DNA of 57,536 nt from a virus. Its lineage: Duplodnaviria > Caudoviricetes. The position numbers were made by a program, and so were the translations under genes. The stretch is from IMG/VR virus record IMGVR_UViG_3300035703_000110, positions 1 through 57,536 of that record; one strand, written 5' to 3'. The notes beneath the pieces were generated by a model. That model searched no databases, was not told the DNA's origin, and was given only the letters and a program-made list of their open reading frames with translations. Shown here piece by piece: positions 5,307-53,431 of this stretch; the stretch's first letter is position 1, and each line of letters starts with the position of its first letter.

Positions 5307-6278
5307 ATGTCCAACGAACTGCTACAACTCAACCCCGGCTCTGTCAAAAAAGCAACCGTGGGTATTTCCTCCGGCGACCTGTGGAAAATGCCACGCGATC
5401 GTATCCGTGTGATCGAGGGTTTCAACGTGCGCGAGAAAGACGCGGACTACAAGGCCAACGTGCGCAAGTACGCGGACAGCATGAAGGCCAACGGCTACGA
5501 TGAAACCAAACCGATGGCCGGTTACGTCTTTGAAGAAAACGGCGAACACTACATTGGCCTGATTGACGGTCACACCCGCTTGGATGCAGTTGACTTGGCA
5601 AACAAGGAAGGTGCAGAAATCTCGATCATCCCTGTGGTGACAAAGGCCCGTGGTACATCCATGGAAGACATCACGATTGGCTTGGTCACCAGCAACAGCG
5701 GCGCAGCTCTGAAGCCTTTGGAAATTGCGAAGGTCTGCAAGCGTTTGGTGGGCTACCAAATGGATGTGAAAGACATTGCCGCCCGACTCACGCTGACCCC
5801 GGCCTACGTCAACCAGTTGCTCGATTTGTTGGCTGCACCCAAGGCAGTGCGTGAACTGGTTGCCAATGGCACTATTGCCGCCACCCTGGCAATGGACACC
5901 CTGAAGAAACACGGCAAAGACGCGGCCAAGATGCTGACTGCCGGTGTGAAAGAAGCCAAGGTTACCGGCAAGACCCGCGTAACTGCGAAGCACGTCAAAG
6001 CCGCCACAGCGCCTAAAACGAAGCTTGCCAAGGGTAAGTCCAGCACCAAGGCTCAAAAAGCTGCCCAAGAGGCTACGCCGAGCACCACAGCGCCTACCGA
6101 TACCGACAACCTGTTGGAATTGGGCCGTGTCTGGATTGAAGAACACCAAACAGGTCACGCACCTGAAATGGATCGTTGCAAAGAAATGCTGGCCTTCATT
6201 GCCGGTGTAGCCATCGAACGAGTCCAAGCGCTGTTCCCTGCCCCGGCTGCAGGCAGTGCGGACGATGAGCAACTTTGA
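5307..6278 (+). CDS. ParB/Srx N-terminal domain protein with HTH
   Basis: GFNVRE...LIDGHTRL ParB-like motifs and a VKDIAARLTLTPAYVNQLL HTH. Confidence 0.8.
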   Translation: MSNELLQLNPGSVKKATVGISSGDLWKMPRDRIRVIEGFNVREKDADYKANVRKYADSMKANGYDETKPMAGYVFEENGEHYIGLIDGHTRLDAVDLANKEGAEISIIPVVTKARGTSMEDITIGLVTSNSGAALKPLEIAKVCKRLVGYQMDVKDIAARLTLTPAYVNQLLDLLAAPKAVRELVANGTIAATLAMDTLKKHGKDAAKMLTAGVKEAKVTGKTRVTAKHVKAATAPKTKLAKGKSSTKAQKAAQEATPSTTAPTDTDNLLELGRVWIEEHQTGHAPEMDRCKEMLAFIAGVAIERVQALFPAPAAGSADDEQL

Positions 6279-6289
6279 AAGCCCACGCC

Positions 6290-7219
6290 ATGTTTAAAGG
6301 ATTTACCGTCTACAAGCTTTTGAAGCGTATCCCTTTGGCGACTCTTGAAGACGCCTTGGCGAGTGACCCGTTTATGCCCATTGGTTTGTCGCAAGAAAAA
6401 TCAGTGGGTTGGACGCCGCCACGGGGTAACGAGCATGACGCATTTGTGGAGGCAATCGGTGACCATCACATTGCAACCTTTGTCATCGAAACGAAGTCTG
6501 TACCTGCCTCGGCCATCAAGCCGGTGCTCGATGAGCGCTTGGCTGAAATTGAAGACTCGACCGGGCGCAAACCGGGCAAACGTGAGCGCCGGGAACTCGG
6601 TGATGAAGTCCGCTTGGAGCTGCTACCTAAAGCCTTTCCCAAGAAATCTCATATCACCATGTGGATTGACAAAAAGGCCGGGTACATCGTGTTTGACAGC
6701 ACGAGCCAATCGAAAATCGATGAGGTGGTTACCTCGTTGGTGCGTAACTGCAAAGACGTGAACATTCAACTTGTGAACACCAGCACAAGCCCGGTTGCGT
6801 GGATGGCGGCGGTGCTCATCGATAGCGACCAACTCTCATCGAAATTCACCATCGACCGTGAGTGCGAACTCAAGGCGTCCGATGAAACTAAGGCAGTGGT
6901 CAAGTACAGCAAGCATCCCTTGGACATCGCAGAAGTCCGGGCGCACATTCAACAGGGCAAGATGCCTACCAAGCTGGCCTTGACTTGGAATGACCGCGTG
7001 AGCTTTGTGCTGACCGAGAGCTTGGCTGTGAAAAAGGTTGTGTTTTTGGACACGGTTTTTGAGAGCCAAAGCAGCAAAGAAAACGATGACGACTTTGATG
7101 CTGACGTGGCTATCGTGACCGGTGAACTCAGCGCCTTGATCCCTGAACTCTTTGATGAGCTTGGCGGTGAGCTGAGTGACGGCGAGGTGAAGACTGACCC
7201 CGAGGATGAAGAACTGTGA
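6290..7219 (+). CDS. rdgC: recombination-associated protein RdgC
   Basis: MFK start, SVGWTPP, ELLPKAF, KLALTWNDRVSFVLTE and FDADVAIVTGEL motifs. Confidence 0.93.
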   Translation: MFKGFTVYKLLKRIPLATLEDALASDPFMPIGLSQEKSVGWTPPRGNEHDAFVEAIGDHHIATFVIETKSVPASAIKPVLDERLAEIEDSTGRKPGKRERRELGDEVRLELLPKAFPKKSHITMWIDKKAGYIVFDSTSQSKIDEVVTSLVRNCKDVNIQLVNTSTSPVAWMAAVLIDSDQLSSKFTIDRECELKASDETKAVVKYSKHPLDIAEVRAHIQQGKMPTKLALTWNDRVSFVLTESLAVKKVVFLDTVFESQSSKENDDDFDADVAIVTGELSALIPELFDELGGELSDGEVKTDPEDEEL

Positions 7220-7467
7220 AAAAACGACCAGGGCCGAAAATCGATGAAACGAAGTACGCTCAGGTCGAAGCTTTCTTGCTTATGCAACCGGGGGAATCGT
7301 TCTTTGTTGCAGGCAAGAAAGCCGCTGACCTTGCGTACCTCCGCAGACCTGTGCAGAAGGCGGGCGCAGGTATCCAAATCATTGAAGTGCTCCGCGACAC
7401 CGTACACCAGACAAACGGGGTGCGCGTGTGGCGTCGGGCCGGTAGCATTGATGAGAGCGAACTGTAA
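7216..7467 (+). CDS. hypothetical protein (MQPGESFFV...GVRVWR family)
   Basis: GTGA overlap with rdgC. Confidence 0.75.
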   Translation: MKKRPGPKIDETKYAQVEAFLLMQPGESFFVAGKKAADLAYLRRPVQKAGAGIQIIEVLRDTVHQTNGVRVWRRAGSIDESEL

Positions 7468-7656: not shown

Positions 7657-8039
7657 AAAAGCCTGATTTTGAGCCCAACCTGAGCCACCTCGAAAGCTTG
7701 TTGCGCATGAGCAAAAGCGTGGTCTTTGTGTCCGACCGCAGCACCGGCAAGCAAGTGCGCAAGGTGTGTCACTCTTTGGGCCTGCCATGTTTCTTTGCAG
7801 CAAAGGAAACCCCGCACAGCTTGTTGCCAGGGCAAGCCGCTCACTTTGAACGTGACTTGAGTAACTTTGTCACGATCATCGAAACCTACACACTCACACC
7901 CGAGTGGCGCACACTGGCAGAGCAAGTCTTTTGGATTGCCAACCCACCGATTACCCCTGAAGCCATCCGGGTGTACGAGCAAGCAATAGCGATGGCCCCC
8001 GGCTCGGTCGTCACGCACATTGAAAATTGGGGGCTCTAG
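7653..8039 (+). CDS. hypothetical protein
   Basis: 128-aa ORF within the operon. Confidence 0.7.
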   Translation: MKKPDFEPNLSHLESLLRMSKSVVFVSDRSTGKQVRKVCHSLGLPCFFAAKETPHSLLPGQAAHFERDLSNFVTIIETYTLTPEWRTLAEQVFWIANPPITPEAIRVYEQAIAMAPGSVVTHIENWGL

Positions 8040-8284
8040 TGCCTATCAAAACGATCAACCTGCGCGTGTCACTCGATGACATCAAGAAACTCAAACACGA
8101 GGTGTTGGAGAACATCAAACTGGTTGAAAAAATGCGTGCAGCGGGCATCCCGGTGGTGGGTAAGCTCGTGCTCTCCGGCATCACCCATGGCACGCTGACA
8201 CATCACGTTGAGGAAGACCTTGACGGTGACACGTTGGTCTACACATGGACCGGCGAAGTCGCCATTGTGGAGGATGAACTTTGA
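8027..8284 (+). CDS. hypothetical protein
   Basis: 85-aa ORF ending VEDEL. Confidence 0.7.
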   Translation: MGALVPIKTINLRVSLDDIKKLKHEVLENIKLVEKMRAAGIPVVGKLVLSGITHGTLTHHVEEDLDGDTLVYTWTGEVAIVEDEL

Positions 8285-8636: not shown

Positions 8637-8807
8637 ATGAGCACATCAAACGAATTGCAAAAACTCAACAACCAGTTGGCCGAGTTGGAGAGTCGTTTGG
8701 TGGTGCTGCAACAAAGCAAGTTGTTTGCGTCCGCTGAGAAAATCGAACGCAAAATCAGTGAAGTAAAAAAGCTAATCAACCGAGCTAAAAAGGAACCCTC
8801 CAAATGA
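8637..8807 (+). CDS. small coiled-coil protein
   Basis: GGAG RBS, MSTSNELQKL..., and an ATGA overlap with the next gene. Confidence 0.7.
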   Translation: MSTSNELQKLNNQLAELESRLVVLQQSKLFASAEKIERKISEVKKLINRAKKEPSK

Positions 8808-9445
8808 AAGAAGACGACATCAGCATTGACTTGGAAACCACCTCCAATAAATTCAATGCGGCCATCCTGTCTATCGGTGCGTGTCGCTTTGACCGGGCAA
8901 CCGGCAAGACCATGCAAACCTATTACGCCGAGGTGCAGATTGATGACGCCTTGCGGTACGGCAAGGTCAACGCGGACACGATGAAGTGGTGGATGCGCCA
9001 ATCCCCACAAGCGCAAGCTATCTGGCAGCGCCCCGAGGATAAGAAGTTGCCCTTGTTCGATGCCTTGCGTGGGCTGAGTGACTTTGTGCGCTCGTGCAAT
9101 GCAGGCGTGAAGGTGTGGGGTAACGGTGCATCTTTTGACCTTACGATCCTTGAGCACGCCTACGAGCGGGCGGGTAATGGATTGGTGGGTGGTTGGGAAT
9201 TTTGGGACATCCGTGACATGCGCACCATTTTGGATGCGACCAAAGTGCGGATGCAAGATTTCAAGCGCAACGGTGTCCACCACAACGCGTTGGCTGACGC
9301 CGTTTTCCAAGCCGAGGTGATGTGTGCAGCTTGGCAAAAGCAACACGAGTTGCTCAAGGTTTGGGACAAATACAAAGCTCCCAAATCGAAGCCCGTAAAC
9401 GCGCCTGCAGTGGCTCCCGCAACCGATGACGATGAAGAACTATGA
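8804..9445 (+). CDS. DEDDh-type 3'-5' exonuclease (Rv2179c/ExoVIII-like)
   Basis: IDLET, WGNGASFDL, RDMRT and HNALADA motifs. Confidence 0.9.
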   Translation: MKEDDISIDLETTSNKFNAAILSIGACRFDRATGKTMQTYYAEVQIDDALRYGKVNADTMKWWMRQSPQAQAIWQRPEDKKLPLFDALRGLSDFVRSCNAGVKVWGNGASFDLTILEHAYERAGNGLVGGWEFWDIRDMRTILDATKVRMQDFKRNGVHHNALADAVFQAEVMCAAWQKQHELLKVWDKYKAPKSKPVNAPAVAPATDDDEEL

Positions 9446-9705
9446 GCAACAAAAAACCACCCCGACAACTCACCGGCTTAGTCCGCACAGTCGTCCAAGA
9501 GTCGCATCAAGTAGCGCCCGTTTACATGGGCCTCGCAAGTGGCTTTGTGACTGACGGTGTGCATTTCATCCTGGTAGCAAACACCATGGGTGACATTAAA
9601 AAATTGGCCGAGAAACTTGAATACTCGGAATTCGCACCAGAACTCGTGCAACCAGTTGCTGTCATGCACGAAAGTTTTGTCACGCTGCAGGACGATGAAC
9701 TGTGA
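9442..9705 (+). CDS. hypothetical protein
   Basis: ATGA overlap. It ends QDDEL. Confidence 0.7.
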   Translation: MSNKKPPRQLTGLVRTVVQESHQVAPVYMGLASGFVTDGVHFILVANTMGDIKKLAEKLEYSEFAPELVQPVAVMHESFVTLQDDEL

Positions 9706-37333: not shown

Positions 37334-37676
37334 GGGTTACATCCTGAATCATGGGCAAAATGCCGCTGACAACCGTGCGCACGTCACCCAAGGCGTCAGT
37401 GACTTGAATATCGAAGGCCACGTTACCCACACCGGTAATGATCCGTTTCAAGATGCTCACCGTACCCGCTAAAGGATCGGTAATGTAAATCTGTGGATCA
37501 GCACCATCCGAGCGCCAAGTGTAGAGTGGCTGTGCCGATGCGGGCAATGCACGCATTTGCATCGCAATCACAGCGCCGGTCAAGTTCATGGGTACACCAT
37601 TCAAGGTGATCGTCATGCTCAGGCCACGCCACGTATCACCCGACACATGGGGTTTCAATGTAATTGCCATGGTCAA
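37326..37676 (-). CDS. BppU-like adaptor/structural protein
   Basis: GDTW...P.NLTG..I.MQ.R...FDIQVT...G...QDVTR. Confidence 0.65.
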   Translation of the reverse strand: MTMAITLKPHVSGDTWRGLSMTITLNGVPMNLTGAVIAMQMRALPASAQPLYTWRSDGADPQIYITDPLAGTVSILKRIITGVGNVAFDIQVTDALGDVRTVVSGILPMIQDVTRV

Positions 37677-42743: not shown

Positions 42744-44381
42744 CTAAACCTCGGCTTCAGCGTTTCGCTTGTGCAGCCTACGAATGAGCTGTTTGAGAAT
42801 TGAGAAAAGGTTGTCTTGGTTCAGCTCTTTTTTCACTAACCCCTCGCAGATTAACTCATCAATCGTGCCAATCGCTGTGATGAGTTGCACCACCACCGGG
42901 TGTTTCTGACCCTGGCGGGCCAAGCGCCCGACAAGTTGTAGGTACAACTCCAATGACCATGTGAGGTCAAAAAAGACAAGGTTGTGCCCACCGTGTTGCA
43001 AGTTCAAACCGTGCCCACCAGATTTAGGGTGAATTAACAACATGGGTATCTTACCCGCATTCCAATCCTTGACGCATTTACCTTCGGTATCCATTACTAC
43101 CGCTTTTGGAAATGCCTTTTTCAAACGAGCCAATGACGACTTGAAATGGTAGGCAACGAGTATTGTTTTGCCGGGTAGCGAATCTCGAATTTCTTTCAGT
43201 GTCTCAATCTTGTGGTCGTGGATATGGTGAACCTTTGTCACCTTCGTCAAGTCTTCGAATTCAATATCCCCTTCCATGGTTGTCTCATACAAAACGCCCG
43301 AGGCTATTTGAGTCAACTTTCCAGTCAGGCCCGCCGCTGTTTCGGCTTCAATAACTGAGTCACCTACTTTTACGACCAACTCAGTTTCGAGTTGCCGGTA
43401 AATCGCCATTTCATGTTCGGCTAAGACCACAGGTTTTCGGATCACCAATGGCTCATCCATTTTTAGGTAATCCTTGGCCTTCATCACCAAACACAAGTCA
43501 CTGATTTTTTCTAGTATCTCGTTTTCTGCGTTTGGTCGGGGTTCGTACTTCCGGGTCCACTTGTTGTGATTGAACCATTGATTGCGAAAGGCGGTGATGT
43601 TCTTTCCAAGGCGCTCACCCAAGTCCAACAGATAAATCAGGGTCCACACATGCTCAATAGACTCCGCAGCAAACGTGGCTGTGAGCCCGTGGAGCCGCGT
43701 AATTAGGCCGGGTGTACGTCTGACCTTGGCGAGTGATTTAAAGACGTGTGTGCTCGAATCTTTGAACAAGCTGATTTCATCAATGATGACTGTCCGGTAA
43801 GGCCATTTGCCTTTGTGGAAATTCACGAGCCATTCAAGTTGCTCTTTGTTGATGAAATGAATGTTTGTTGGGCTGCGTGCGAGGTCCGCACGGATTGCAT
43901 GGCGTTCGCGGGTTTCATGCGTTGGGCCAAGGGCTTGCTGTATCTCCGCTTCAGTTTTGCCGTTGGACAACATCATGTCCCGGTTGAATGAACGCTCTGC
44001 AGCTTCTTTACGGTCACGCGCACGCGCCGGAGTTAGTCTAGGGTCGTTGTCACTCTCACGAATCAACGTGTAATTCATGTGAGCAAGGTGTTGCCACAAA
44101 CCAATCTCGGTAGGCCATGTGTCGGTCATCACACGCACAGGCCCAATGACCAAGATTTGCTCTTTGGTTATCTCACGCAAAAGCCACGCAATCAAAGTCA
44201 AAGAGGTGACCGTCTTACCCAAACCTAAGTCGATAAAAAGGTGCGAGAAAGGGTTGTCACGCAAAAACTCGAAGCCTTCGTTTTGGTAGACGTGCATATC
44301 GCTACGCCCACGTATCACGTTGGCTAACTTAGTTTTCACGTAATCATCTAAAGAGAATTTTTGCATTTTCGAGGCTGTCAA
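42744..44381 (-). CDS. SNF2-like DEAD/H helicase
   Basis: LGLGKT, IIDE, GLTAT, HPKSGGHGLNLQ and RLARQGQ. Confidence 0.9.
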   Translation of the reverse strand: MTASKMQKFSLDDYVKTKLANVIRGRSDMHVYQNEGFEFLRDNPFSHLFIDLGLGKTVTSLTLIAWLLREITKEQILVIGPVRVMTDTWPTEIGLWQHLAHMNYTLIRESDNDPRLTPARARDRKEAAERSFNRDMMLSNGKTEAEIQQALGPTHETRERHAIRADLARSPTNIHFINKEQLEWLVNFHKGKWPYRTVIIDEISLFKDSSTHVFKSLAKVRRTPGLITRLHGLTATFAAESIEHVWTLIYLLDLGERLGKNITAFRNQWFNHNKWTRKYEPRPNAENEILEKISDLCLVMKAKDYLKMDEPLVIRKPVVLAEHEMAIYRQLETELVVKVGDSVIEAETAAGLTGKLTQIASGVLYETTMEGDIEFEDLTKVTKVHHIHDHKIETLKEIRDSLPGKTILVAYHFKSSLARLKKAFPKAVVMDTEGKCVKDWNAGKIPMLLIHPKSGGHGLNLQHGGHNLVFFDLTWSLELYLQLVGRLARQGQKHPVVVQLITAIGTIDELICEGLVKKELNQDNLFSILKQLIRRLHKRNAEAEV

Positions 44382-44640
44382 TAACGTGAACTTCTACGCC
44401 TTGTTTTTGTAAATCCGCGTGTCGAAGTATTTGCTGTGACTTGGGTTCTTTGTTGGGGGCTTTGAATTCAACCAACATGATTCGTCCATTGCGTGCGCAG
44501 AAGCGATCAGGAAAACCCCGGCGCGATTGGCTCACAACTTTTTCAATGAACCAACCCCGTGTCTTTGCGTATTCTGTGGCCGGTCCTTCGATGTCGTCTA
44601 TTTCCTTGACAGTGCGTTGATAGAAAGCTTTAGTGGTCAT
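44344..44640 (-). CDS. VRR-NUC domain nuclease
   Basis: RGFPDR...VEFKAP.....Q...H......G..V.VIDS. Confidence 0.88.
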   Translation of the reverse strand: MTTKAFYQRTVKEIDDIEGPATEYAKTRGWFIEKVVSQSRRGFPDRFCARNGRIMLVEFKAPNKEPKSQQILRHADLQKQGVEVHVIDSLENAKILFR

Positions 44641-45284
44641 AGATCGTCTTCACAATTCGTCTGCGCCGTCTTCCATGTAGGCACTGATAAAAGTTTTTGC
44701 GACTTCCGAGTTGATTGCGTTTCCATAGGCACGCAGGCGTCCCACGCGTCCGGGAGCCCCATGAGCCAACGGGAATGTGCCGGGTTCAACTGCCCTCCAC
44801 TTTCCATCTTGGCAGTAGAGCCAGTCAACATCACGCCATCTACCGTTAGTCGGGCCGGACCTTGCACCATCTTTACCATTTGAGTCAAGCTGCGCCCCGT
44901 CATTCCCGCTGTAATTCCCGTCCCGCCCCGTGTCCCGTCCGTGGCTGCAGGTGTCGGCCAACCCGCTAACTGAGCTACCACGTCCAACGTGTCCGTGCTT
45001 ATTTTGCCGTTCCGTATCCGACCACCGATGTAACCGCCCTTGTAATCCCTCGTGCTCGGAGTCGGCCACGAACCATAGTCGTTGTCGGATGTTCGGTGAG
45101 CCGACGCCCGCAGCGCAAAGATCAACAGCCCCGAAGGCGTACCTCGATGCTTCCATGTCAGCGTGTACAAGGTCGAGCCACTCAAGACCATCTTTGCTTG
45201 CAACCTGTTCGCCAAAAACCGTTGGAGGACGGCACTGTTCGATGAGGTAATGCCAGGTCGGCCAAAGATGCCGCTCGTCAGCAA
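44637..45284 (-). CDS. overlapping alternate-frame C5-MTase beta polypeptide (TRD/motif IX part)
   Basis: Nested in the MTase gene in another frame. AAGGAG (45296-45291) lies 6 nt before TTG 45284. It has WPTP..D twice and QLNPAHSRWLMGLP. Confidence 0.7.
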   Translation of the reverse strand: MLTSGIFGRPGITSSNSAVLQRFLANRLQAKMVLSGSTLYTLTWKHRGTPSGLLIFALRASAHRTSDNDYGSWPTPSTRDYKGGYIGGRIRNGKISTDTLDVVAQLAGWPTPAATDGTRGGTGITAGMTGRSLTQMVKMVQGPARLTVDGVMLTGSTAKMESGGQLNPAHSRWLMGLPDAWDACVPMETQSTRKSQKLLSVPTWKTAQTNCEDDL

Positions 45285-45582
45285 ATCCAGCTCCTTTGCC
45301 TGCCGCGCTGAAAGGTTGGCAAGGGCATGAACCTGTCCATACGGGGCGGTCGTCGGCCTAACCTGCTTGTCGCAAGGCTCGGCTCCAAACTCCGATTCCT
45401 GCAAAGAAATGGCATTGGGTATATTTTTTGAGGTCGTTGGGTGTGACATCTTCAATACTTCTTTCGTCAACATCACCGGGTGAAATAAAACCGGCTTTTA
45501 TTAAATTACGCAACCACTTTGCTGCAAAGGGATCAATTTCGTTGTAGTAAGTTGGTTTTATATTTTTTGAAACGTAAGTCAC
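44650..45582 (-). pseudogene. DNA cytosine-C5 methyltransferase (alpha polypeptide) interrupted by in-frame TAG at 45358-45360
   Basis: One continuous frame reads YYNEIDP...FFAGIGVWSRALRQAG*ADDRPVWTGSCPCQPFS...GEQV...RQRLWFVA...LRAYGNAI. Confidence 0.85.
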
Positions 45583-47609
45583 AAGGTACTCTCTTTCCGA
45601 CACTTGGCGCAGAGCTTGTAATTTAATGGCACAGCGTCATCCTCAATCCACTTTTCACGCATATTTTTTGGAGTCTTGCCACACCGGGCAATACCCACGG
45701 GCAAAAGAACCTCGTGGTAAGTCTTCTGGTCAGCCAAACGGCCCAAAAACACGCCTGTGCGGCCCGCCAATGAAGGGTCAAGGGTAGGTAGGCCAATGTC
45801 TTGAAGAATGGCCGTAGCTTCACGCAAATACCACGAATAGTTGATGTCTTTTGGAAACTCTTTCGGCAAGGTCATCAAGGCCATTGCACCGTCACTCTTA
45901 GGGACCGCGTTACCACTCAATTTGTAGACTAACCCTGTCTTGTGTTTGGTTCCGTAAGCCCACCGAACGGCCTTGCCGAGTAGCTTGCCGTCTTGATCCA
46001 ACGCGCCGCCTTTTACGGTGCGTATCGTGACAAATTTGCGGATGTCGCGGCAAGCCATAATGGTTTGTTCGAGTGGGGTATTGAACTTCAGCAATGCAAT
46101 CACTGCGTCAATAGTGATTTCGCAGTTCGGGTTTTTTTTCATCCCGTCAGCACCGCGCAACCCTGGACCCGCAGGCGCAAACGCACCCTTGGATTTGACT
46201 TTGCCGTCCATACCGATTGCAAGAAAGTTGTTGACATCACGGGAGTGCAAAGAGCGGAGGTAAGTCTTTTCCAGTTCCAACAACGTGTCGAATTCCCAAT
46301 CCATCAAAATGACAGAATAGTCCTCTCTACGGCCACGGGGCACGCGGGTGATAAAACCGTCAGTGTTGGCAGATATGACTTCAAATCCGGCCAACCACAA
46401 ACGCTCAATCAGCATCAGCAAACTCAATTGCCCGGTGATCGTTGTTTGAATCATCATGTCCGGTGAGTAGACTACGGAGAAAGCCGATCCAAGCTTTCCA
46501 TACAAGCCGTTCAGGGTCAGCTTCAATGACTCCGCAGTACCCTTGTCACCGGCTTTCTTGGCAGCCAATCGGCGCTTGTAGATGCTGCGGTAAACGGTCA
46601 TGAACACATCACCGATATGCTTTGGTGAGTACCCACCATTCAAAATCAAACTCGGGTAGTAACTCGCCACGTCAGCATCAATTAACTCAAAGTCGTCATC
46701 CGTCACATAGGTAGTTTTGCTTTCAGAAGAATGCAACCCACCAATACCCATGCGAAAGACGTTGTTGCCAAATTTAATTGTCAGATCATCAAGCGCCGGG
46801 GGTGTTTCTACGATGAGTTTTCCATTCACAACGAATGGGGATGTCGTCACAATTTCAAAGGCTCGTTGGAGTTGCTCTGTATGAAATTCAAGGTACAGCG
46901 GAGCCACGTATTTGAATGTCTTGGGGCGGGCTTCAGGTCGGTAAAGTTTTTTGCGTGTGACGCGCTCCACTTCCTTTTTAAGCACGGCTTCTGCTACCTG
47001 TGGACCGGATTTACTGCGCAAATCAATCTCGTATTCATTACTCATTGAAGCACGTAGATCAATGCCTTCTTTTAGCTCAAAGTATTTGGCACGAGTAAGG
47101 CCGAGGTCGTTACGCAGGTAGGTAATCATTGTTTCCCGTTTAGCTTCCGTGATGCGGTCATCCGGGCTAAAGGGTAAGTCCATCATTGTCTCGTAATGCA
47201 AGCGCCCGCCGTACATTTTGAGGCTTGGGCGTTGAGGTGATCCAGGTGATACCTCCATCAAGTCAATGTGGTCAATCCACGCGGGTAAGCTGACGTTGTA
47301 TTGCTCGTAAAACTGCCACGGCTTGATGTCAGAATGAATGATCGTGTCACTCGCTTGCTTCAGCTCACCGTTGGTTGCGCCGCTCATTGCAAGGGCAATC
47401 ATAGGCAAGTCATAGTTGATACCGTTAAAGCTAATCACACGGTACTTTTTAAAGGCACGAGCGATGCCTTTCAAATCCAAAACTGAGTCATTCCATTTCT
47501 CAAAATGCAAGATTTCTTGAGTGTCAACGTCCATGAAACCAATTGACCAATAGTTGACGTAGCACTCGGTATCGTGAACCGCTGTTGGTCGTTTTTCGGT
47601 GTAATCCAT
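45579..47609 (-). CDS. DNA polymerase, family B-like, with 3'-5' exonuclease domain
   Basis: Exo motifs HDTEC, FNGINYD and YLRND. Pol motifs DVASYYPS, KLTLNGLYGK and SANTDG. Confidence 0.88.
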   Translation of the reverse strand: MDYTEKRPTAVHDTECYVNYWSIGFMDVDTQEILHFEKWNDSVLDLKGIARAFKKYRVISFNGINYDLPMIALAMSGATNGELKQASDTIIHSDIKPWQFYEQYNVSLPAWIDHIDLMEVSPGSPQRPSLKMYGGRLHYETMMDLPFSPDDRITEAKRETMITYLRNDLGLTRAKYFELKEGIDLRASMSNEYEIDLRSKSGPQVAEAVLKKEVERVTRKKLYRPEARPKTFKYVAPLYLEFHTEQLQRAFEIVTTSPFVVNGKLIVETPPALDDLTIKFGNNVFRMGIGGLHSSESKTTYVTDDDFELIDADVASYYPSLILNGGYSPKHIGDVFMTVYRSIYKRRLAAKKAGDKGTAESLKLTLNGLYGKLGSAFSVVYSPDMMIQTTITGQLSLLMLIERLWLAGFEVISANTDGFITRVPRGRREDYSVILMDWEFDTLLELEKTYLRSLHSRDVNNFLAIGMDGKVKSKGAFAPAGPGLRGADGMKKNPNCEITIDAVIALLKFNTPLEQTIMACRDIRKFVTIRTVKGGALDQDGKLLGKAVRWAYGTKHKTGLVYKLSGNAVPKSDGAMALMTLPKEFPKDINYSWYLREATAILQDIGLPTLDPSLAGRTGVFLGRLADQKTYHEVLLPVGIARCGKTPKNMREKWIEDDAVPLNYKLCAKCRKESTL

Positions 47610-47696: not shown

Positions 47697-48308
47697 TTAC
47701 AGACCGTCATCACCTTCGTCGTCGTCACCTTCAACTTGGTCCCACACGTCGTTGTCATCGACTTCGCCGTTGCCGAAAGGTGTGTCTTTCTTCACGTACT
47801 GAATGCCAATGAAACCGGCGTTGACTTTCTTGCCATAGTCGTTGTCCTGAAACCATGGCTTGATGAGGATGTTGAACCAAAAGCCGCTTTGAAACATGGA
47901 GCGGACTTTCTCGCTGTCAGTCACCAATTCGCCTTCACGATCCCGGCATTTCGGTTTCTTCAGCTCAGAAGCGTTGACGGTCCAAGCAGACTCGTATTCT
48001 TCCTTGGCAGCGTCATCGCCGTCACGGATGAACCAATCTTTTTTACCGACCTTTGCGTCTTTGTTGTCCTTCAAAACTTTCTTGATGAATTCTTCACAAG
48101 CGGCCCGTGCAGCCTCATGTGTTTCCTTCGGCAAGATAGCTACGAGGCTGTACTTTGCAGGTGCTTCGCCGCCGTCATCACGCTTGGCTTTGCCCTTGTA
48201 AGGTTTGTCCGCGTGGACGTAGGAGCCACGCACGTTATCCAGACGCATAGTACCGTCGCTATACACAACAAAGTTCTTACCTTTTTTCACAATTTCGCGT
48301 GTTGCCAT
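47697..48308 (-). CDS. single-stranded DNA-binding protein (DUF2815/Gp2.5-like)
   Basis: NVRGSY.H..KP, FIRDGD, YGKKVNAG...IQ and an acidic tail. Confidence 0.85.
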   Translation of the reverse strand: MATREIVKKGKNFVVYSDGTMRLDNVRGSYVHADKPYKGKAKRDDGGEAPAKYSLVAILPKETHEAARAACEEFIKKVLKDNKDAKVGKKDWFIRDGDDAAKEEYESAWTVNASELKKPKCRDREGELVTDSEKVRSMFQSGFWFNILIKPWFQDNDYGKKVNAGFIGIQYVKKDTPFGNGEVDDNDVWDQVEGDDDEGDDGL

Positions 48309-48309: not shown

Positions 48310-49641
48310 TCACATTTCCTCATCTTCGTTTACAGGGTCGAGGTTCTCAAAAGAGGCCTCGGTTAAATCAACCAGTGCAGGCCGTTTGTCTTTCAACGGT
48401 GCAAGGGTTGGTCGGCCAGGTGGTTTGTAGGTCAAACCCTCCAGCAAACTCGGGATGTCTCTGCTTTTGTGACCCGCGATCCGCAACAGCTTTTCACACT
48501 GCGCAGGACTCGCTACCTTTTGGGTCACGAGGCTGTCATAGGGCACGCCTAAAGAGACAATATTACTTACGGCTTCGGTATCGTCAATGAAGACCCTGCG
48601 GCTGCGGCCTTCGACAAATTTCCATCCGTACTGTTCGATGTTTTCACCATCGTTTGCGCGGCGGGCCAACTCTGCATCGAGTGACTCCCACCAACGATTC
48701 GCCATGGTCCGATAGGTCAACATGCTTGTTATCTGCGAAGTGGTCAAAGTGAACACATCAACCGGTGCAATACCAAAGTCAAGATCGTCCACGCGGTCTT
48801 GAAACGCTTTAATCACGGGTACTGGTGTGGGAGTGTCCAAATTCTCAAAAACGCCTTCTGTAAGCTCTGCTTGAAGCTTTGCATTGGCTGCGCAAGACGC
48901 CATGACTCGGCAAAACTGGCATTGCTTGACGCCGGGTTTGCGGGGCGCATCCAAGCTCCACGCCAAATCCATTTGTTGCTGTGCCCAATAGGAAAAGCGG
49001 AGTAACTCTGCGCGGCTGATTACCCATGAGTCGAAGTGATCGAGTCGGGGTTGTGCAATACGAATTTCAATCTCTTGAATGTCGTGCTCACCGTCAAACT
49101 CTTTGTCAAACTCATACAGCGCACCAAGGGCGTACAACATGCCTTGGGTGTTGAGTTCCGCGTAAATGATGTGGTTTGTACCGAACTTCCAATCAGCAAC
49201 CACCATACGGCGGCGGTCAATCGCAATGAAGTCTGCAGTACCCCGCTGACGGGGGATCGGTGTGATGCGTGAAAAGTCAACCCGGCGCTCGAAGTAATGA
49301 GTCCCTGGTAACAGAGCCACCCAATCAACGCACATTTGGCAGTAATTGAGCATCTTGTCATCAATCTCAATCATGTACCCCCACTCACCCGACTCCACAA
49401 ACTCAAGTGTGTCAACTAAATGGTCCGGGCGTTTGCCGGTTTTGAGCCATGTTTCAGTCACGCCATGGGCAACAGTGCCATAGGCTGCATCTGGACCCGA
49501 TACGTCTTTTGCAAGCAGGTTTGGCACAAGGCTCCCGCTGCATTCAAGCCACATAGATGAGCTTGACGGTGAGAAGACACTATGCCCCGATCCATCACGG
49601 ATCATGGCGAGTTCTTCCAGATTTACGGGTTTCAGTTTCAT
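48310..49641 (-). CDS. Cas4-like/PD-(D/E)xK exonuclease (DUF2800)
   Basis: HSVFSPSS...W..C.GS, GTVAH, GTADF, DWKFG, NTQ..LYALG and C.FC.....C. Confidence 0.9.
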   Translation of the reverse strand: MKLKPVNLEELAMIRDGSGHSVFSPSSSSMWLECSGSLVPNLLAKDVSGPDAAYGTVAHGVTETWLKTGKRPDHLVDTLEFVESGEWGYMIEIDDKMLNYCQMCVDWVALLPGTHYFERRVDFSRITPIPRQRGTADFIAIDRRRMVVADWKFGTNHIIYAELNTQGMLYALGALYEFDKEFDGEHDIQEIEIRIAQPRLDHFDSWVISRAELLRFSYWAQQQMDLAWSLDAPRKPGVKQCQFCRVMASCAANAKLQAELTEGVFENLDTPTPVPVIKAFQDRVDDLDFGIAPVDVFTLTTSQITSMLTYRTMANRWWESLDAELARRANDGENIEQYGWKFVEGRSRRVFIDDTEAVSNIVSLGVPYDSLVTQKVASPAQCEKLLRIAGHKSRDIPSLLEGLTYKPPGRPTLAPLKDKRPALVDLTEASFENLDPVNEDEEM

Positions 49642-49968: not shown

Positions 49969-50310
49969 TTACATATCTTCTTCAGCCAAGGCTTGTTCGC
50001 AGCCGTCATACAGCTTGTCCCAACCTTCGGCAGTCTTGATGTCCGCCAGCTTGTCGAAACCGGCTGCTTTGATGATGGCTTTGGCAGCGGGCACGCCCTT
50101 GTCAGCCTTCACCTTTTCGATGGCAGCTTTGGCTTCGGTTTCGGTGTGCTTGGCAACGTATTCGTCAGCCTTGGGAGCTTTCTCAGCCTTCGTGGTTTTT
50201 TCAGCCTTGGTGGTTGTGGCTGCAGGAGCTGCAGCGCCACCGGCCAGCAGGGCAGCGGTGTTTGCGTTCACGGCTGCAATCAGGTCTTCAATTTTTTGTT
50301 CCAAGCTCAT
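49969..50310 (-). CDS. hypothetical replication-module protein
   Basis: GGAG RBS, MSLEQKIEDLIAAVNANTAAL. It ends EEDM. Confidence 0.8.
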   Translation of the reverse strand: MSLEQKIEDLIAAVNANTAALLAGGAAAPAATTTKAEKTTKAEKAPKADEYVAKHTETEAKAAIEKVKADKGVPAAKAIIKAAGFDKLADIKTAEGWDKLYDGCEQALAEEDM

Positions 50311-50434
50311 TTCAATCTCCATTGATACGCCCAAAATTTAAAGATGCAAGCAACGTGGGCTATCGCTACTCACAACAAACGATTGATTCGTCAGTGGTGC
50401 AAGTATATCCACAATTTTTAGAAAATTAGAACAA

Positions 50435-50770: not shown

Positions 50771-50878
50771 CAGCGTTCATGTGCGAGGTGGTGTTTGACC
50801 ACCAAAAAACTTGAAAAACTGTAAATACAAGGGCGGTTAGATGACTTATTTTCAATTTAGAGCCATGGGGTCGGGCTC

Positions 50879-53431
50879 ATGAGCGGTCCATTTCAAACAA
50901 AAGGTCTTGCCTATATTGAGCAAGGCTATGCAATTGTGCCCATCCCACGCGGTAGCAAGGGTCCAACGCTGGATGACTGGCAAAGCGAGTACGCAAGCAC
51001 AGCCGAACGCCACGCAGAGTTAGTCGAAGACTACGGTAATTGCGGTATCGGCATCATTGCGAAGTTCAACCCGGCAATCGACATCGACACGCTTGATGAA
51101 GCGATGTCAGAGCACATGATTGAGTGGGTGCGTGACAACATCGCGGATGCACCGCTACGCTACGGCCAAGCACCCAAGGCTTTGATGCTGTTTACCTGCG
51201 CAACACCGTTTCGCAAAATCACGTCAGCCAAGTACATCCGTCCAGGTGGGTCGAAGAAAGGTGAGCGCGTTGAAATCTTGGGTAATGGTCAACAGTTTGT
51301 GGCTGACCACATCCACCCGGATACCAACAAGCCGTACTTCTGGCAGGATGATGAGGCAAGCCCGCTGACTGTCAACGCTATCGACCTGCACATGCTCACG
51401 CTGGATGAAGCGTTGGCCGTTTGCCGTGAGTTTGAACGTGTGGCCGAGCTGCGCGGGTGGGAGAAGGTAGCTAACGCCACAAATGCTCAGGGTGATGATG
51501 AAGACACACCCACGGCTGAAGACGCTTTGGGGCAGCTCGACCTACCCGAAGAAACCGAGGAAGAAATTGCACGCGTCAAATCCGCTCTTGAGGCCATGGA
51601 CCCCGAGGTGGAAGACTACTCGTATGAAGAATGGCGCAATGTCCTCTTTGCTCTCAAGTGGACCCAATGGTCATGTGCCGAGGAACTTGCACGCGAGTGG
51701 TCCGAGCGATCCGACAAATACGATGCAAAGAATTTCCGCACCGTTTGGAAAGGCGCACAGAAACGGCAACGTGGTCGTGAGCACACTCTTGCTACCGTCT
51801 TCCACATGGCAAAGTCTCGTGGTTGGGATGCCTCGCGCAAGCCTACCGAGGAAGACAAAACCGAGCTGCTTTACACCCTGTTGTCCGAAGCGGATGCGCT
51901 GTCCCAAATCGTGCGCCCTGGTCGTGCCCTGAAAGAGCTGTTGAAAAAGCTTGCCACGGCTGACCTTGACAACTTGGATGAGGCCGAGGTGCTGAAGGCC
52001 ATCAAGGCGTCTACCAAAGACTCCATTGCCGACCTGAAAAAAGCAGTCGGTCAGTTCAAAAAAGGTGGTGACGCGATCAGCCCGACACACGCCGGGTACG
52101 CCAAATCATTTTTAGCCAAGCTCGAAGAACGCAGCGATGTGGACCCGGTAGGCGTAGAGGGCATGATTTTTCACTACGTCAAGCGCAAAGGGGTGTGGGA
52201 CGGCCTGCAAGCCCCGGACGCGGCAAGTGTGAAGGTAGCCGATGAATTCGACGGTATGGAGCACTGTGAGCGCCGTAGTGACTACACGGCCATTGCAAAC
52301 CACGCCTACTCGATAGCTGCACAAGAGAATGAAGACTTTTTCAATGACGCACCCGTGGGCTTGGCTTGCCAAGGTCGCTTCTACTCGGTCAACGCCGAGG
52401 GTGAAATTGAACGTGAGCCCATTGGACCGCAGCACCGGCAACGCGTCTTGTCGCCAGTTCGTCCCATTGCTGGTGATAAGCCTCTTTTTGAGAAATTCTT
52501 GCACTCCACATTTGAGGGTGAAGGCGAACAAGACCAAATTGACTTGCTGCAAGAGGTCATTGGGGCCACGCTGGTAGGCACGATGGCCAAATATGAAAAG
52601 GTGGTGCTGTTTAAGGGTCCAGGCCGTGCAGGTAAGGGCACGCTCATGAAAATCATCGAAGCCATGATGCCCCCTGAATGGCGTAGCGCGATCAGCCCCT
52701 TCAAATGGGATAACGAATACTACTTGGCGAGTCTTGCCGGTAAGCGCTTGAACTTGGTGGGTGAGTTGACCGATGAGATTCCAATTCCTGCAGCCAACTT
52801 CAAGACCGTCACGGGCCGGGACATTCTGCAAGGTCGTCACCCTGCGGGCCGGCCGTTCAACTTCCGCAATCAAGCTGCGCACATTTTTAACTCAAACTAC
52901 TTTGTGCATACCAAGGATCACAGTGACGCGTTTTTCAGTCGCTGGATTCTCATGGAGTTCCGCAACAGCCGGATCGGATCAAATGAAATTGAAACCGACT
53001 TGGCAAAAAGGATCATCGACGGCGAGTTGTCGCAAATTATGGCGTGGGCGCTTCAAGGGGCCAAACGGCTGCAGGCCCGTGACCGCTTCCTAGATAACAG
53101 CGTGCAGGCCCGCATGTTGGCTCAGTGGTCACGTCGCACAAGCTCACTGACAGAATTTGTGTTGGACCCTGATTTCTGCATTTTGACCCGCGATAAAAAC
53201 GATCACGTCTTGCGTTCGGATTTTTACAAGAGCTACGCGCAGTGGTGCAAAGAGTCCAATCGTCACCCCATGGGCAAAATCAAGGCGTTCGATGAGCTGG
53301 AAAGTTCGACGTTCCGCCGCCTGGATATAACCGTTGGGACGGTAATTGGTAAAAACTTTGTTGTGCGTGGGATGCGTTTGAAGACAAGCGAATGGGACCA
53401 TTTAAGCCGAGAAGACGACCAAGAATTATGA
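50879..53431 (+). CDS. bifunctional primase-polymerase / PriCT-2 / D5-like SF3 helicase
   Basis: GYAIVPI...KGP, AIDID, H.HPDT.KPY.W, YEEW......L and Walker A GPGRAGKGT. Confidence 0.92.
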   Translation: MSGPFQTKGLAYIEQGYAIVPIPRGSKGPTLDDWQSEYASTAERHAELVEDYGNCGIGIIAKFNPAIDIDTLDEAMSEHMIEWVRDNIADAPLRYGQAPKALMLFTCATPFRKITSAKYIRPGGSKKGERVEILGNGQQFVADHIHPDTNKPYFWQDDEASPLTVNAIDLHMLTLDEALAVCREFERVAELRGWEKVANATNAQGDDEDTPTAEDALGQLDLPEETEEEIARVKSALEAMDPEVEDYSYEEWRNVLFALKWTQWSCAEELAREWSERSDKYDAKNFRTVWKGAQKRQRGREHTLATVFHMAKSRGWDASRKPTEEDKTELLYTLLSEADALSQIVRPGRALKELLKKLATADLDNLDEAEVLKAIKASTKDSIADLKKAVGQFKKGGDAISPTHAGYAKSFLAKLEERSDVDPVGVEGMIFHYVKRKGVWDGLQAPDAASVKVADEFDGMEHCERRSDYTAIANHAYSIAAQENEDFFNDAPVGLACQGRFYSVNAEGEIEREPIGPQHRQRVLSPVRPIAGDKPLFEKFLHSTFEGEGEQDQIDLLQEVIGATLVGTMAKYEKVVLFKGPGRAGKGTLMKIIEAMMPPEWRSAISPFKWDNEYYLASLAGKRLNLVGELTDEIPIPAANFKTVTGRDILQGRHPAGRPFNFRNQAAHIFNSNYFVHTKDHSDAFFSRWILMEFRNSRIGSNEIETDLAKRIIDGELSQIMAWALQGAKRLQARDRFLDNSVQARMLAQWSRRTSSLTEFVLDPDFCILTRDKNDHVLRSDFYKSYAQWCKESNRHPMGKIKAFDELESSTFRRLDITVGTVIGKNFVVRGMRLKTSEWDHLSREDDQEL

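What the first reader, a model, noticed from the sequence alone, without database searches (positions are those of the whole stretch)
5307..53431. Shared acidic-Leu/Met C-terminal tag on about 14 unrelated non-structural proteins: a possible phage-wide docking or degradation code
Seen in the sequence, the C-termini are: ParB-like ADDEQL, RdgC PEDEEL, 7216 gene IDESEL, 8027 gene VEDEL, exonuclease DDDEEL, 9442 gene QDDEL, TerS IDDQTL, MTase-alpha DGADEL, MTase-beta NCEDDL, SSB EGDDGL, Cas4-like NEDEEM, 49969 gene LAEEDM and primase-helicase EDDQEL. Weaker matches are DNA pol KESTL and helicase AEAEV. Capsid, tail and lysis proteins mostly lack the tag. Both reading frames of the overlapping MTase end in it, via a near-tandem duplication AGACGAATTGTGA/AGACGATCTATGA. 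Some copies could be a by-product of a purine-rich RBS plus an NTGA start-stop overlap. However, the primase, SSB, 7216-gene and 49969-gene copies have no overlapping downstream gene and several end in TAA. Established: acidic tails with a hydrophobic last residue act as docking motifs (bacterial SSB-Ct DDDIPF, T7 gp2.5 tail, EEVD-type TPR ligands). Inference: the phage has given its DNA-transaction proteins one common tail that recruits them to a single hub or controls their proteolysis.
Basis: partly seen in the sequence, partly recalled or inferred. Interest (0 to 1): 0.85.

Follow-up and report, generated by a model that had tools for sequence, protein, structure and literature searches.

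The report
Shared acidic C-terminal docking tail
About one in six proteins of this phage, all of them handling DNA, end in the same short acidic peptide capped by leucine or methionine, and related phages keep the peptide but change the cap in many proteins together, which points to one shared, still unidentified binding partner.

Summary
13 of 74 called ORFs, plus a 14th reading frame, end in an acidic stretch capped by one hydrophobic residue. About 1.6 are expected by chance (p 7e-9). All 13 lie outside the virion and lysis block (13 of 43 against 0 of 31).

It is not a by-product of ribosome-binding sites or gene overlap. Synonymous codons vary, stop codons vary, and several tailed genes have no close downstream gene. 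In Salmonella phage YSD1, 9 of 10 tailed genes end in TAA.

Orthologues at 27-58% identity keep the tail. Cellular RdgC proteins lack it, while the nine closest RdgC homologues carry a linker plus the tail.

The tail runs through the whole Chi-like/Nazgul-like siphovirus group. The cap is lineage-specific: Leu here, Val in Chivirus, Ile, Phe or Met elsewhere. It is more uniform within genomes than chance allows (0 of 20000 shuffles).

Best reading: a portable docking tip, like the T7 gp2.5/gp4 tails and the bacterial SSB tip, read by one common and probably phage-encoded partner. That partner was not identified.

Earlier agents of this scan noted the same phenomenon in other genomes. I found no description of it in print.

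The parts
5307..6278 (+). ParB-like protein; tail ADDEQL encoded at 6258-6275
   Evidence: Pfam HTH_ParB/KorB; phrog_1033, 9e-53; tail. The G003 orthologue ends DGDDSL. The PCA1 ParB has no tail.
6290..7219 (+). RdgC; tail PEDEEL encoded at 7199-7216, after a short linker
   Evidence: Pfam RdgC, 6e-90. All 9 closest homologues carry a linker plus tail. Cellular RdgC ends at ..ALGGExx.
7216..7467 (+). 83-aa protein (phrog_7200); tail IDESEL at 7447-7464; TAA stop; no close downstream gene
   Evidence: The G001 orthologue ends GSWDEL.
8039..8284 (+). 81-aa protein (phrog_31589); tail VEDEL at 8267-8281
   Evidence: The G001 orthologue ends PVDDEL.
8804..9445 (+). 3'-5' exonuclease (Rv2179c-like); tail DDDEEL at 9425-9442
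   Evidence: Pfam, 3e-45. Orthologues end DDPDAL, NEDDEL, DDDDEL and TEDDEI, with differing codons.
9442..9705 (+). 87-aa orphan protein; tail QDDEL at 9688-9702
   Evidence: No family hit and no orthologue in the relatives.
41661..42206 (-). Small terminase subunit; tail IDDQTL at 41664-41681, inside the 41-base overlap with the large-terminase gene
   Evidence: phrog_141, 3e-42; Pfam DUF1441. Orthologues end IDDEPL, DDDDEL, DDDKTI, DDDDEI, DDPNAL, IEDDPL and VDDDEV. 17 of 22 representative genomes have the tail.
42744..44381 (-). SNF2-type helicase; weak tail NAEAEV at 42747-42764
   Evidence: Pfam SNF2-rel_dom/Helicase_C. A clear tail is present in 11 of 33 representative genomes, for example DDDDL in UF_RH7 and DDDDI in A18P4.
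44637..45476 (-). MTase-region frame B ORF (279 aa); tail NCEDDL at 44640-44657; its stop overlaps the ATG of the VRR-NUC gene
   Evidence: phrog_1008, 4e-31; sequence.
44650..45582 (-). C5-cytosine methyltransferase (frame A) with one in-frame TAG at 45358-45360; tail DGADEL at 44653-44670
   Evidence: phrog_363 hits on both halves; motifs read. Homologues in unrelated phages end ..AYMEAA or ..AYMEAIK without a tail.
47697..48308 (-). gp2.5/Enc34-type single-strand-DNA-binding protein; tail EGDDGL at 47700-47717; TAA stop
   Evidence: Pfam Enc34_ssDNA-bd, 3e-18. AlphaFold model: core pLDDT above 90, last 23 residues about 55. 28 of 33 representative genomes have the tail.
48310..49641 (-).
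   Evidence: Pfam DUF2800, 2e-67. 22 of 37 representative genomes have the tail.
49969..50334 (-). 121-aa Ala/Lys-rich protein (phrog_7721); tail LAEEDM at 49972-49989; TAA stop
   Evidence: 12 of 14 representative genomes have the tail.
50879..53431 (+). Primase-polymerase/helicase; tail EDDQEL at 53411-53428, followed by a terminator-like hairpin at 53437-53454
   Evidence: Pfam Prim-Pol, PriCT_2, DUF5906; terminator scan. 57 of the 58 closest database homologues carry an acidic tail with a hydrophobic cap.
45579..47609 (-). DNA polymerase, a divergent family-B type, with no acidic tail (ends CAKCRKESTL); candidate reader
   Evidence: phrog_1252, 1e-177. The PDB profile search hits only family-B polymerases. 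Only 5 of 25 representative genomes meet the tail rule.

Best explanation
The tail is a portable short linear motif at the extreme C-terminus. It has three to five Asp/Glu residues, no Lys/Arg, and one hydrophobic cap that carries the free carboxylate. It often follows a flexible linker.

The phage lineage has attached it to most of its replication, recombination, DNA-modification and DNA-packaging proteins:
- SSB
- primase-helicase
- DUF2800 nuclease
- RdgC
- ParB-like protein
- exonuclease
- methyltransferase
- small terminase
- several small orphan proteins

It most likely works like the acidic tails of T7 gp2.5 and gp4, or like the bacterial SSB tip. A basic surface with a hydrophobic pocket on one common partner binds the tip and brings all tagged proteins to the same place on phage DNA.

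Shown:
- The enrichment.
- Selection at the amino-acid level.
- Addition of the tail to phage versions of cellular or unrelated-phage proteins.
- Family-wide spread.
- Coordinated, lineage-specific caps.

Inferred:
- That the tail binds anything at all.
- That there is a single reader.

Reader candidates are the conserved module proteins that rarely or never carry the tail (DNA polymerase, VRR-NUC, large terminase) and the tail-binding groove of the SSB.
For: 1. Enrichment. 13 of 74 ORFs fit against 1.6 expected, and 1 of 413 non-gene ORFs fits. All 13 lie outside the late block.

2. Five whole relatives show the same pattern:
- 9 of 66
- 14 of 91
- 11 of 85
- 19 of 83
- 4 of 47

3. The acidic stretch and the hydrophobic end are coupled. 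Of 266 ORFs with an acidic end in 37 representative genomes, 205 end in LIMVFWY. About 23% of the 943 other ORFs do.

4. Selection acts on the amino acids.
- Tail codons use GAT/GAC, GAA/GAG and five Leu codons, roughly as the rest of the genome does.
- Orthologues at 27-58% identity keep the tail with different codons and different stops.

5. The tail is an add-on.
- The 9 closest RdgC homologues (62-100% identity) have a Gly/Ser linker plus DEEL-type tip.
- 108 of the other 111 listed RdgC homologues have none, including named Rhodoferax, Polaromonas and Curvibacter proteins.
- C5-MTase homologues in unrelated phages stop just before the tail.

6. 57 of the 58 closest primase homologues have the tail: 39 capped L, 17 W, 1 I.

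7. Caps are coordinated within genomes.
- G004 has 15 Ile caps.
- YSD1 has 8 Val caps.
- Aeromonas phage A18P4 has Ile on 6 of 6 core proteins.
- L021 has Phe and L051 has Met.
- There are 474 same-cap pairs against 336 +/- 20 in shuffles, reached by 0 of 20000 shuffles.

8. The cap follows the phage, not the host.
- Pseudomonas phage UF_RH7 and Pectobacterium phage MA11 belong to one phage genus and both use Leu.
- Salmonella phage YSD1 uses Val, although its host is in the same order as MA11's.

9. Precedent from papers.
- The T7 gp2.5 tail binds the polymerase and the helicase (passages of PMC4124056 and PMC12339929).
- In the Enc34 SSB crystal the acidic C-terminus lies in a neighbour's groove (passages of PMC5686142).
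Against: - No binding partner was found. The AlphaFold model of the SSB leaves its own tail unplaced (pLDDT about 55).
- The code is not perfectly uniform. In this window two caps are Met and one is Val. SSB and the phrog_7721 protein often use a -G-L variant. In locus L099 the primase ends in W and the nuclease in Y, but SSB ends in L.
- Tailed proteins include the small terminase and, in relatives, a small virion-associated protein and a portal. A replisome hub does not obviously explain these.
- The cap switches V, I, F and M are each seen on one branch of a quick, weakly supported tree. The count of independent events is therefore small. Only Ile looks to have arisen twice.
- The permutation test ignores relatedness beyond my 70% dereplication.
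Confidence: 0.6

Rival explanations
1. The reader is a host protein, for example a partner of host SSB, a protease adaptor or a nucleoid protein. The tails would plug phage proteins into host machinery.
For: - The tip resembles the bacterial SSB tip in outline: acidic residues plus a hydrophobic end with a free carboxylate.
- The tail-less relative PCA1 instead has ..DLF[GNT] ends on primase, nuclease and VRR-NUC. From memory these look like host sliding-clamp-binding motifs, so this module can use host hubs.
- Some cellular Acidovorax RdgC proteins end in D..APF.
Against: - 0 of 13 tails here have the Pro-Phe end of the SSB tip.
- The cap differs between phages whose hosts share an order (YSD1 Val, MA11 Leu). 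It is the same in one phage genus on hosts of different orders (UF_RH7 and MA11).
Confidence: 0.15
2. There is no common reader. Each tail folds back on its own protein's DNA-binding surface as an auto-inhibitory DNA mimic, as proposed for T7 gp2.5, T4 gp32 and HMGB-type proteins.
For: - Nearly all tagged proteins bind DNA.
- Removing the Enc34 SSB tail changes DNA-binding specificity (passage of PMC5686142).
- Strong negative charge: mean net charge of the last 10 residues is -3.8, against +0.1 in other ORFs.
Against: - Independent cis-acting tails give no reason for one strictly hydrophobic last residue (205 of 266 acidic ends).
- They also give no reason for that residue to be the same across unrelated proteins of a genome and to switch together between lineages.
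Confidence: 0.13
3. The tail is a stability signal. It would be a degron, or a shield against C-terminal degrons, that times the lifetime of early proteins.
For: - The tag sits on early and middle proteins and is absent from the virion and lysis block.
- C-terminal position is typical of bacterial degrons (recalled).
Against: - The degrons I recall (ssrA-like ..LAA, MuA-like basic ends) are non-acidic.
- Host proteases are conserved, whereas the cap varies with phage lineage.
- SSB and primase are needed throughout replication.
Confidence: 0.07
4. The tail is a by-product of nucleotide-level constraints: a purine-rich ribosome-binding site, an NTGA stop-start overlap, or a recombination linker at gene boundaries.
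For: 6 of 13 tailed genes here overlap the next start, and 8 of 13 end in TGA. GAGGA-like strings occur in some tails.
Against: - 18 of 61 untailed genes also overlap the next start without having tails.
- 6 of 13 tailed genes have no start within 15 bases.
- In YSD1, 9 of 10 tailed genes end in TAA and only 1 overlaps the next gene.
- Codons are synonymously diverse within and between genomes.
- The primase is followed by a terminator, and its tail is kept in 57 of 58 homologues.
Confidence: 0.02
5. The tail is a capsid-targeting signal that loads the tagged proteins into virions for co-injection.
For: - In relatives a small head-module protein and one portal carry the tail.
- PCA1, which shares the replication module but has a different virion module, lacks the acidic tails.
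Against: Virion mass spectrometry of the related phages PIN1 and PIN2 lists structural proteins plus one hypothetical protein. No primase, nuclease, SSB or RdgC is listed (Table 1 of PMC12264135; I did not see its supplementary tables).
Confidence: 0.03

Closest known systems
Bacteriophage T7 acidic C-terminal tails of gp2.5 (SSB) and gp4 (primase-helicase), which dock on the gp5 DNA polymerase
   Same: - An acidic, disordered C-terminus ending in one hydrophobic residue.
- It sits on a gp2.5-fold SSB (Pfam Enc34_ssDNA-bd) and on the primase-helicase.
- In T7 the tail mediates contacts with the polymerase and the helicase (passages of PMC4124056 and PMC12339929).
   Different: - T7 has two such proteins. 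This window has 13-14 and relatives have up to 19, including nucleases, RdgC, a ParB-like protein, methyltransferase, small terminase and orphan proteins.
- The cap is aliphatic (L, M, V, I) rather than Phe in most lineages, and it is lineage-specific.
- The polymerase here is a divergent family-B enzyme, whereas T7's is a thioredoxin-binding family-A enzyme (recalled).
Bacterial SSB C-terminal tip (..DDDIPF), the hub motif for SSB-interacting proteins
   Same: A linker-plus-acidic-tip design with a hydrophobic last residue and a free carboxylate. One short peptide serves many DNA-metabolism contacts (abstracts of PMC10018359 and PMC7145534, seen in the listing).
   Different: - The topology is inverted. 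In bacteria one protein carries the tip and many partners have pockets. Here many proteins carry the tip.
- No tail here has the Pro-Phe end.
Enterobacter phage Enc34 ORF6 SSB (crystal structure)
   Same: A homologous SSB family from the same phage supergroup, with an acidic C-terminus. In the crystal the visible part of the tail lies in the groove of a neighbouring molecule (PMC5686142 passages).
   Different: The paper treats the tail as an SSB feature only. The passages I read say nothing about the same tip on other proteins. The last 11 residues, which form the tip itself, were disordered.

Membership tests
T7-type acidic C-terminal tails (gp2.5/gp4) | Acidic C-terminal stretch ending in a single hydrophobic or aromatic residue | tested here: met
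   13 of 74 ORFs. Positions -2 to -5 are D/E in 59-82% of 205 tails, with no K/R at -1 to -3. This is partly true by construction of the rule.
T7-type acidic C-terminal tails (gp2.5/gp4) | Carried by a gp2.5-fold SSB and by the primase-helicase | tested here: met
   Pfam Enc34_ssDNA-bd on 47697-48308, and Prim-Pol/DUF5906 on 50879-53431, both tailed.
T7-type acidic C-terminal tails (gp2.5/gp4) | Read by basic patches of a family-A DNA polymerase with a thioredoxin-binding domain | tested here: not met
   A profile of the polymerase matches only family-B polymerases in the PDB (best 2e-9). No family-A Pfam hit. Whether this polymerase reads the tail is untested.
T7-type acidic C-terminal tails (gp2.5/gp4) | The terminal residue is essential for function | not testable with these tools
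   Needs genetics. Only indirect support here: the cap is conserved and coordinated.
Bacterial SSB-Ct tip | Consensus D-D-D-[IL]-P-F with penultimate Pro and terminal Phe (consensus recalled) | tested here: not met
   0 of 13 tails end in P-F.
Bacterial SSB-Ct tip | Flexible linker followed by the tip | tested here: met
   RdgC homologues carry Gly/Ser-rich linkers before the tip. The last 23 residues of the SSB have pLDDT about 55.
Sliding-clamp-binding motif (QL[SD]LF type, recalled) | Hydrophobic Leu-x-Leu-Phe-type core | tested here: not met
   No tail in the window has it. The relative PCA1 has ..DLF[GNT] ends instead.
C-terminal degrons (ssrA-like, recalled) | Non-polar ..LAA-type or basic end | tested here: not met
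   Tails are acidic, with no K/R in the last three positions and none ending in AA.
EEVD-type TPR ligands (recalled) | A terminal Asp carboxylate clamp, with a TPR receptor encoded or available | tested here: not met
   Tails end in a hydrophobic residue, not Asp. No TPR family appears among the Pfam hits of 76 window proteins at E <= 0.001.

The most novel reading that the evidence does not exclude
The tails are a private address code. A single phage-encoded reader gathers replication, recombination, DNA-modification and packaging proteins into one factory on phage DNA. The lineage-specific cap (Leu, Val, Ile, Phe, Met, Trp) keeps the code orthogonal between related phages. New accessory genes become functional simply by acquiring the five-residue tip.
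Probability: 0.3. Interest if true: 0.9.

Novelty: new variant of a known kind. Interest (0 to 1): 0.74.

Why it matters
If one reader binds all these tips, a five-residue peptide organises most DNA transactions of a large and widespread phage group. That group includes the model flagellotropic phage Chi and many Klebsiella, Salmonella, Pseudomonas, Aeromonas and Xanthomonas phages.

What this would provide:
- A simple handle for finding the hub.
- A way to predict which orphan genes act on phage DNA.
- A means of tagging foreign proteins into the phage replication compartment.
- An explanation of how mosaic phages keep protein networks compatible after gene exchange.

It also widens the T7 two-tail paradigm into a genome-wide code.

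Tried and rejected
- **Complex prediction.** The job was DNA polymerase (alignment A4) with the last 45 residues of the primase (alignment A1). The result was 'no answer', score 0.00 in two runs, and controls were not run. This is neither support nor evidence against binding.
- **Planned SSB-core job.** A job with the SSB core and the primase tail was never accepted because the queue was full. It was not run.
- **SSB monomer model.** It does not place the SSB's own tail, so no pocket could be read off.
- **Search for close relatives.**
  - megablast of 20 kb against phage records found nothing.
  - A single-protein RdgC scan of IMG/VR found nothing.
  - A scan of genome contigs with a Trp-capped primase gave one irrelevant hit.
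  - For the Trp-capped lineage I obtained only one 17-kb fragment, L099. I could not test whether Trp extends to its other proteins. There the primase ends in W and the nuclease in Y, but SSB and the small protein end in L.
- **RNA evidence.** No RNA holder was listed.
- **Careful phylogeny.** It did not finish in two 300-s runs. Only the quick tree was used.
- **Column-by-column covariation.** I considered testing the cap against polymerase, SSB and terminase residues. I dropped it because each non-Leu cap sits on one branch, so phylogeny would fully confound the test.
- **Capsid targeting.** Considered and set aside after reading Table 1 of PMC12264135.
- **Literature.** Four searches found no paper describing a shared tail on many proteins of these phages. 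Subscription journals and supplements were not covered.
- **Loci left out.** Loci shorter than 10 kb were not scanned.

Full report
**What the window is.** The 57536-base window is a complete IMG/VR virus record with direct terminal repeats. It has no near-identical relative among deposited phages.
- Its replication module is:
  - a Prim-Pol/helicase
  - a DUF2800 PD-(D/E)XK nuclease
  - an Enc34/gp2.5-type SSB
  - a divergent DNA polymerase
  - VRR-NUC
  - an SNF2 helicase
- Its lambda-like head and packaging genes (gpA-type large terminase, lambda-type portal, gpW, S49 protease, capsid protein E) place it in the Chi-like/Nazgul-like siphovirus supergroup.
- The closest cultured relative by RdgC is Curvibacter phage PCA1, at 51.5% identity.
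- The closest cellular RdgC proteins are from Comamonadaceae, which suggests a host of that family.

**Check of the observation.** My codon-usage ORF caller gives 74 ORFs of 40 aa or more.

The rule I used: the last residue is one of LIMVFWY, and at least 2 of the 4 residues before it are D or E.
- 13 of 74 ORFs fit the rule. Internal 5-mers of the same proteins predict 1.61 (p 7e-9).
- With L or M only as the last residue, 12 of 74 fit against 0.60 expected (p 1e-12).
- Of 413 other ORFs of 40 aa or more that I did not call as genes, 1 fits. That one is the second reading frame of the methyltransferase region.
- The 13 lie among the 43 ORFs outside 11767-41701. None of the 31 ORFs inside that block of virion, lysis and integrase genes fits (Fisher p 4e-4).

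**Not a nucleotide-level by-product.**
- 6 of the 13 tailed genes overlap the next start codon, but so do 18 of 61 untailed genes. Another 6 of 13 have no start within 15 bases.
- The primase is followed by a terminator-like hairpin.
- Tail codons use both Asp codons, both Glu codons and five Leu codons, roughly in genome-wide proportions.
- Orthologues in five whole relatives share 27-58% identity and keep the tail with different codons and different stop codons. The exonuclease, for example, ends DDDEEL, DDPDAL, NEDDEL, DDDDEL or TEDDEI.
- In Salmonella phage YSD1, 9 of the 10 ORFs that fit the rule end in TAA, and only 1 overlaps the next gene.

**The tail is an appended module.**
- Of 120 listed RdgC homologues, the 9 closest (62-100% identity) end in a Gly/Ser-rich linker plus EDEEL, EDDDL or DEDEL.
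- Of the remaining 111, 108 have no such end and mostly stop at ..ALGGExx. They include proteins that their sources name as Rhodoferax, Polaromonas and Curvibacter RdgC. One fits the rule by what looks like chance, and two end in ..DDDAPF.
- Frame A of the methyltransferase ends ..AYMEDGADEL. Its homologues in Pseudomonas phage 5399 and Edwardsiella phage PVN06 end ..AYMEAA and ..AYMEAIK.
- 57 of the 58 closest primase homologues have the tail after a variable linker (39 capped L, 17 W, 1 I). 23 of the 62 more distant ones still do.

**Spread and the cap.**
- *Whole relatives.* The five IMG/VR relatives I fetched whole carry 9 of 66, 14 of 91, 11 of 85, 19 of 83 and 4 of 47 tailed ORFs. About 1-2 are expected in each.
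- *Non-orthologous carriers.* Many tailed proteins in each genome are small proteins with no orthologue in the other genomes. The tip has therefore been acquired repeatedly.
- *Primase-anchored loci.* In loci of 10 kb or more from IMG/VR and metagenomes, 4-7 tailed ORFs per 13-20 kb is typical.
- *Dereplication.* I dereplicated 73 genomes and loci at 70% nuclease identity into 37 representatives. Of these, 32 have at least two tails, 203 in all (L 132, I 29, V 16, F 11, M 10, Y 3, W 2).
- *Uniformity test.* Same-cap pairs within genomes number 474, against 336 +/- 20 when caps are shuffled (maximum 432). None of 20000 shuffles reached the observed value.
- *Caps in particular phages:*
  - G004 has 15 Ile caps, including primase, SSB, small terminase, a portal-sized protein and a small head-module protein.
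  - YSD1 (Chivirus) has Val on primase, gp04, nuclease, SSB, small terminase, gp18, RdgC and gp59.
  - Aeromonas phage A18P4 has Ile on all six core proteins.
  - Pseudomonas phage UF_RH7 and Pectobacterium phage MA11, which share the genus Newforgelanevirus, have Leu on the same six.
  - L021 uses Phe and L051 mostly Met.
  - BcepNazgul-type loci use a weakly acidic ..(A/G)GL end.
- *Tree.* A quick nuclease tree puts Leu as the common state, with V, I, F and M on separate branches. The tail-poor loci, PCA1 among them, sit in a separate clade. The careful search did not finish, so the branching is provisional.
- *Ile arose at least twice.* The A18P4 nuclease is closest to Leu-capped lineages, not to G004.
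- *Phage, not host.* YSD1 (Val) and MA11 (Leu) infect hosts of one order. UF_RH7 and MA11 share a cap across host orders. So the cap follows the phage lineage.

**Negative controls.**
- Salmonella phage Sergei (Sashavirus) has RdgC, a polymerase, a helicase and a primase. Only 2 of its 81 ORFs fit the rule, which is chance level.
- PCA1 has 0 of 62. It does show other shared ends..DLF[GNT] on primase, nuclease and VRR-NUC, and ..SFF on SSB and a neighbouring protein.

**Which proteins carry it.** Counts are among the 37 representatives.

| Protein | With tail | Present in |
|---|---|---|
| SSB | 28 | 33 |
| Full-length primase | 12 | 13 |
| phrog_7721 small protein | 12 | 14 |
| Small terminase | 17 | 22 |
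| DUF2800 nuclease | 22 | 37 |
| SNF2 helicase | 11 | 33 |
| Exonuclease | 5 | 6 |
| DNA polymerase | 5 | 25 |
| VRR-NUC | 0 | 30 |
| Large terminase | 0 | 7 |

The polymerase, VRR-NUC and the large terminase are the obvious candidates for a phage-encoded reader. The SSB groove is a further candidate: in crystals of Enc34 ORF6, two other DUF2815 proteins and T7 gp2.5, it holds the proximal part of a neighbour's acidic C-terminus (PMC5686142 passages).

The polymerase is a divergent family-B enzyme by profile search against solved structures. The replisome is therefore not a T7 copy.

**Mechanism.**
- The motif is short. D/E enrichment is 78%, 82%, 74% and 59% at positions -2 to -5 and fades by -7. 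There is no Lys/Arg at -1 to -3. The rule itself forces part of this.
- A short acidic run ending in a hydrophobic residue with a free carboxylate is the design of the bacterial SSB tip and of the T7 gp2.5 and gp4 tails. In T7 the tail contacts the polymerase and the helicase (passages of PMC4124056 and PMC12339929).
- A cap that is uniform within a genome and switches between lineages is what a shared pocket predicts. Independent self-inhibitory tails do not predict it.
- I therefore favour a common docking partner, probably phage-encoded.
- I could not identify the partner. The SSB model leaves its tail unplaced, and the only complex job accepted gave no verdict (recorded under Tried and rejected).

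**Novelty.** Four literature searches found the T7 and Enc34 work but nothing on a shared tip across many proteins of these phages. Subscription journals and supplements were not covered.

Earlier agents of this scan reported the same phenomenon on other genomes and reached the same reading. I had reached mine before that look-up, and I re-tested the shared claims here.

Relative to print, this is a new, much enlarged variant of a known kind of motif.

**Side observations.**
- *Methyltransferase region.*
  - Frame A is a full C5-cytosine methyltransferase with one in-frame TAG at 45358-45360, where homologues have Trp.
  - Contigs of two other runs read TGG at that codon. The probable source run reads only TAG.
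  - A second frame of 279 codons lies inside frame A. It is also open in two distant homologues (274 and 250 codons). It matches 250 phage records by tblastn and ends in its own tail through the 13-base near-duplication.
- *Insertion in the head module.* A block at 31102-37676 holds an integrase and seven ORFs with no counterpart in the relatives. It sits between the protease and portal genes.

Noticed in passing
window 44637-45582 (-): - Frame A is a complete C5-cytosine methyltransferase with a single in-frame TAG at 45358-45360, where homologues have Trp.
- Contigs of two other sequencing runs read TGG there. The probable source run reads only TAG.
- A second ORF of 279 codons lies inside it in another frame. 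That frame is also open in two distant homologues (274 and 250 codons) and matches 250 phage records by tblastn.
- Both frames end in the acidic tail through a 13-base near-duplication.
- This may be dual coding.
   Followed up: partly
L002 (Curvibacter phage PCA1) 26109-47891: This relative shares the replication module but has no acidic tails. Instead the primase ends GSDLFG, the DUF2800 nuclease ESDLFN and VRR-NUC KKDLFT. SSB and a 234-aa neighbour end in ..SFF. These are different shared C-terminal codes. From memory, the first resembles sliding-clamp-binding motifs.
   Followed up: no
proteins P0176, P0190, P0155, P0171, P0192, P0230: Some RdgC homologues end in D..APF or DDDAPF, an SSB-tip-like end on a non-SSB protein. 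Several of them are named Acidovorax or Burkholderiaceae by their sources.
   Followed up: no
window 31102-37676 (-): A block of about 6.6 kb holds a tyrosine integrase (31102-32031) and seven ORFs, including proteins of 652 and 606 aa. None has an orthologue in the five whole relatives or in YSD1. It sits between the head protease and portal genes, which lie close together in the relatives. The integrase is followed by the same GC-rich hairpin sequence as the primase.
   Followed up: no
window 45579-47609 (-): The DNA polymerase has no Pfam hit at E <= 0.001. By profile search it matches only family-B polymerases of the PDB, and weakly (best 2e-9). In this window and most relatives it ends in a CxxC motif a few residues before the C-terminus.
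   Followed up: partly
window 27601-28091 (-): Two adjacent paralogous small genes (DUF7443, phrog_7559) lie downstream of the capsid gene. In relatives the single copy carries the lineage's tail (YSD1 gp18 GAEDEV, G004 KANDEI). The protein listed directly after the major head protein in the PIN1/PIN2 virion mass-spectrometry table, which is probably its counterpart, was detected in virions (PMC12264135 Table 1).
   Followed up: partly
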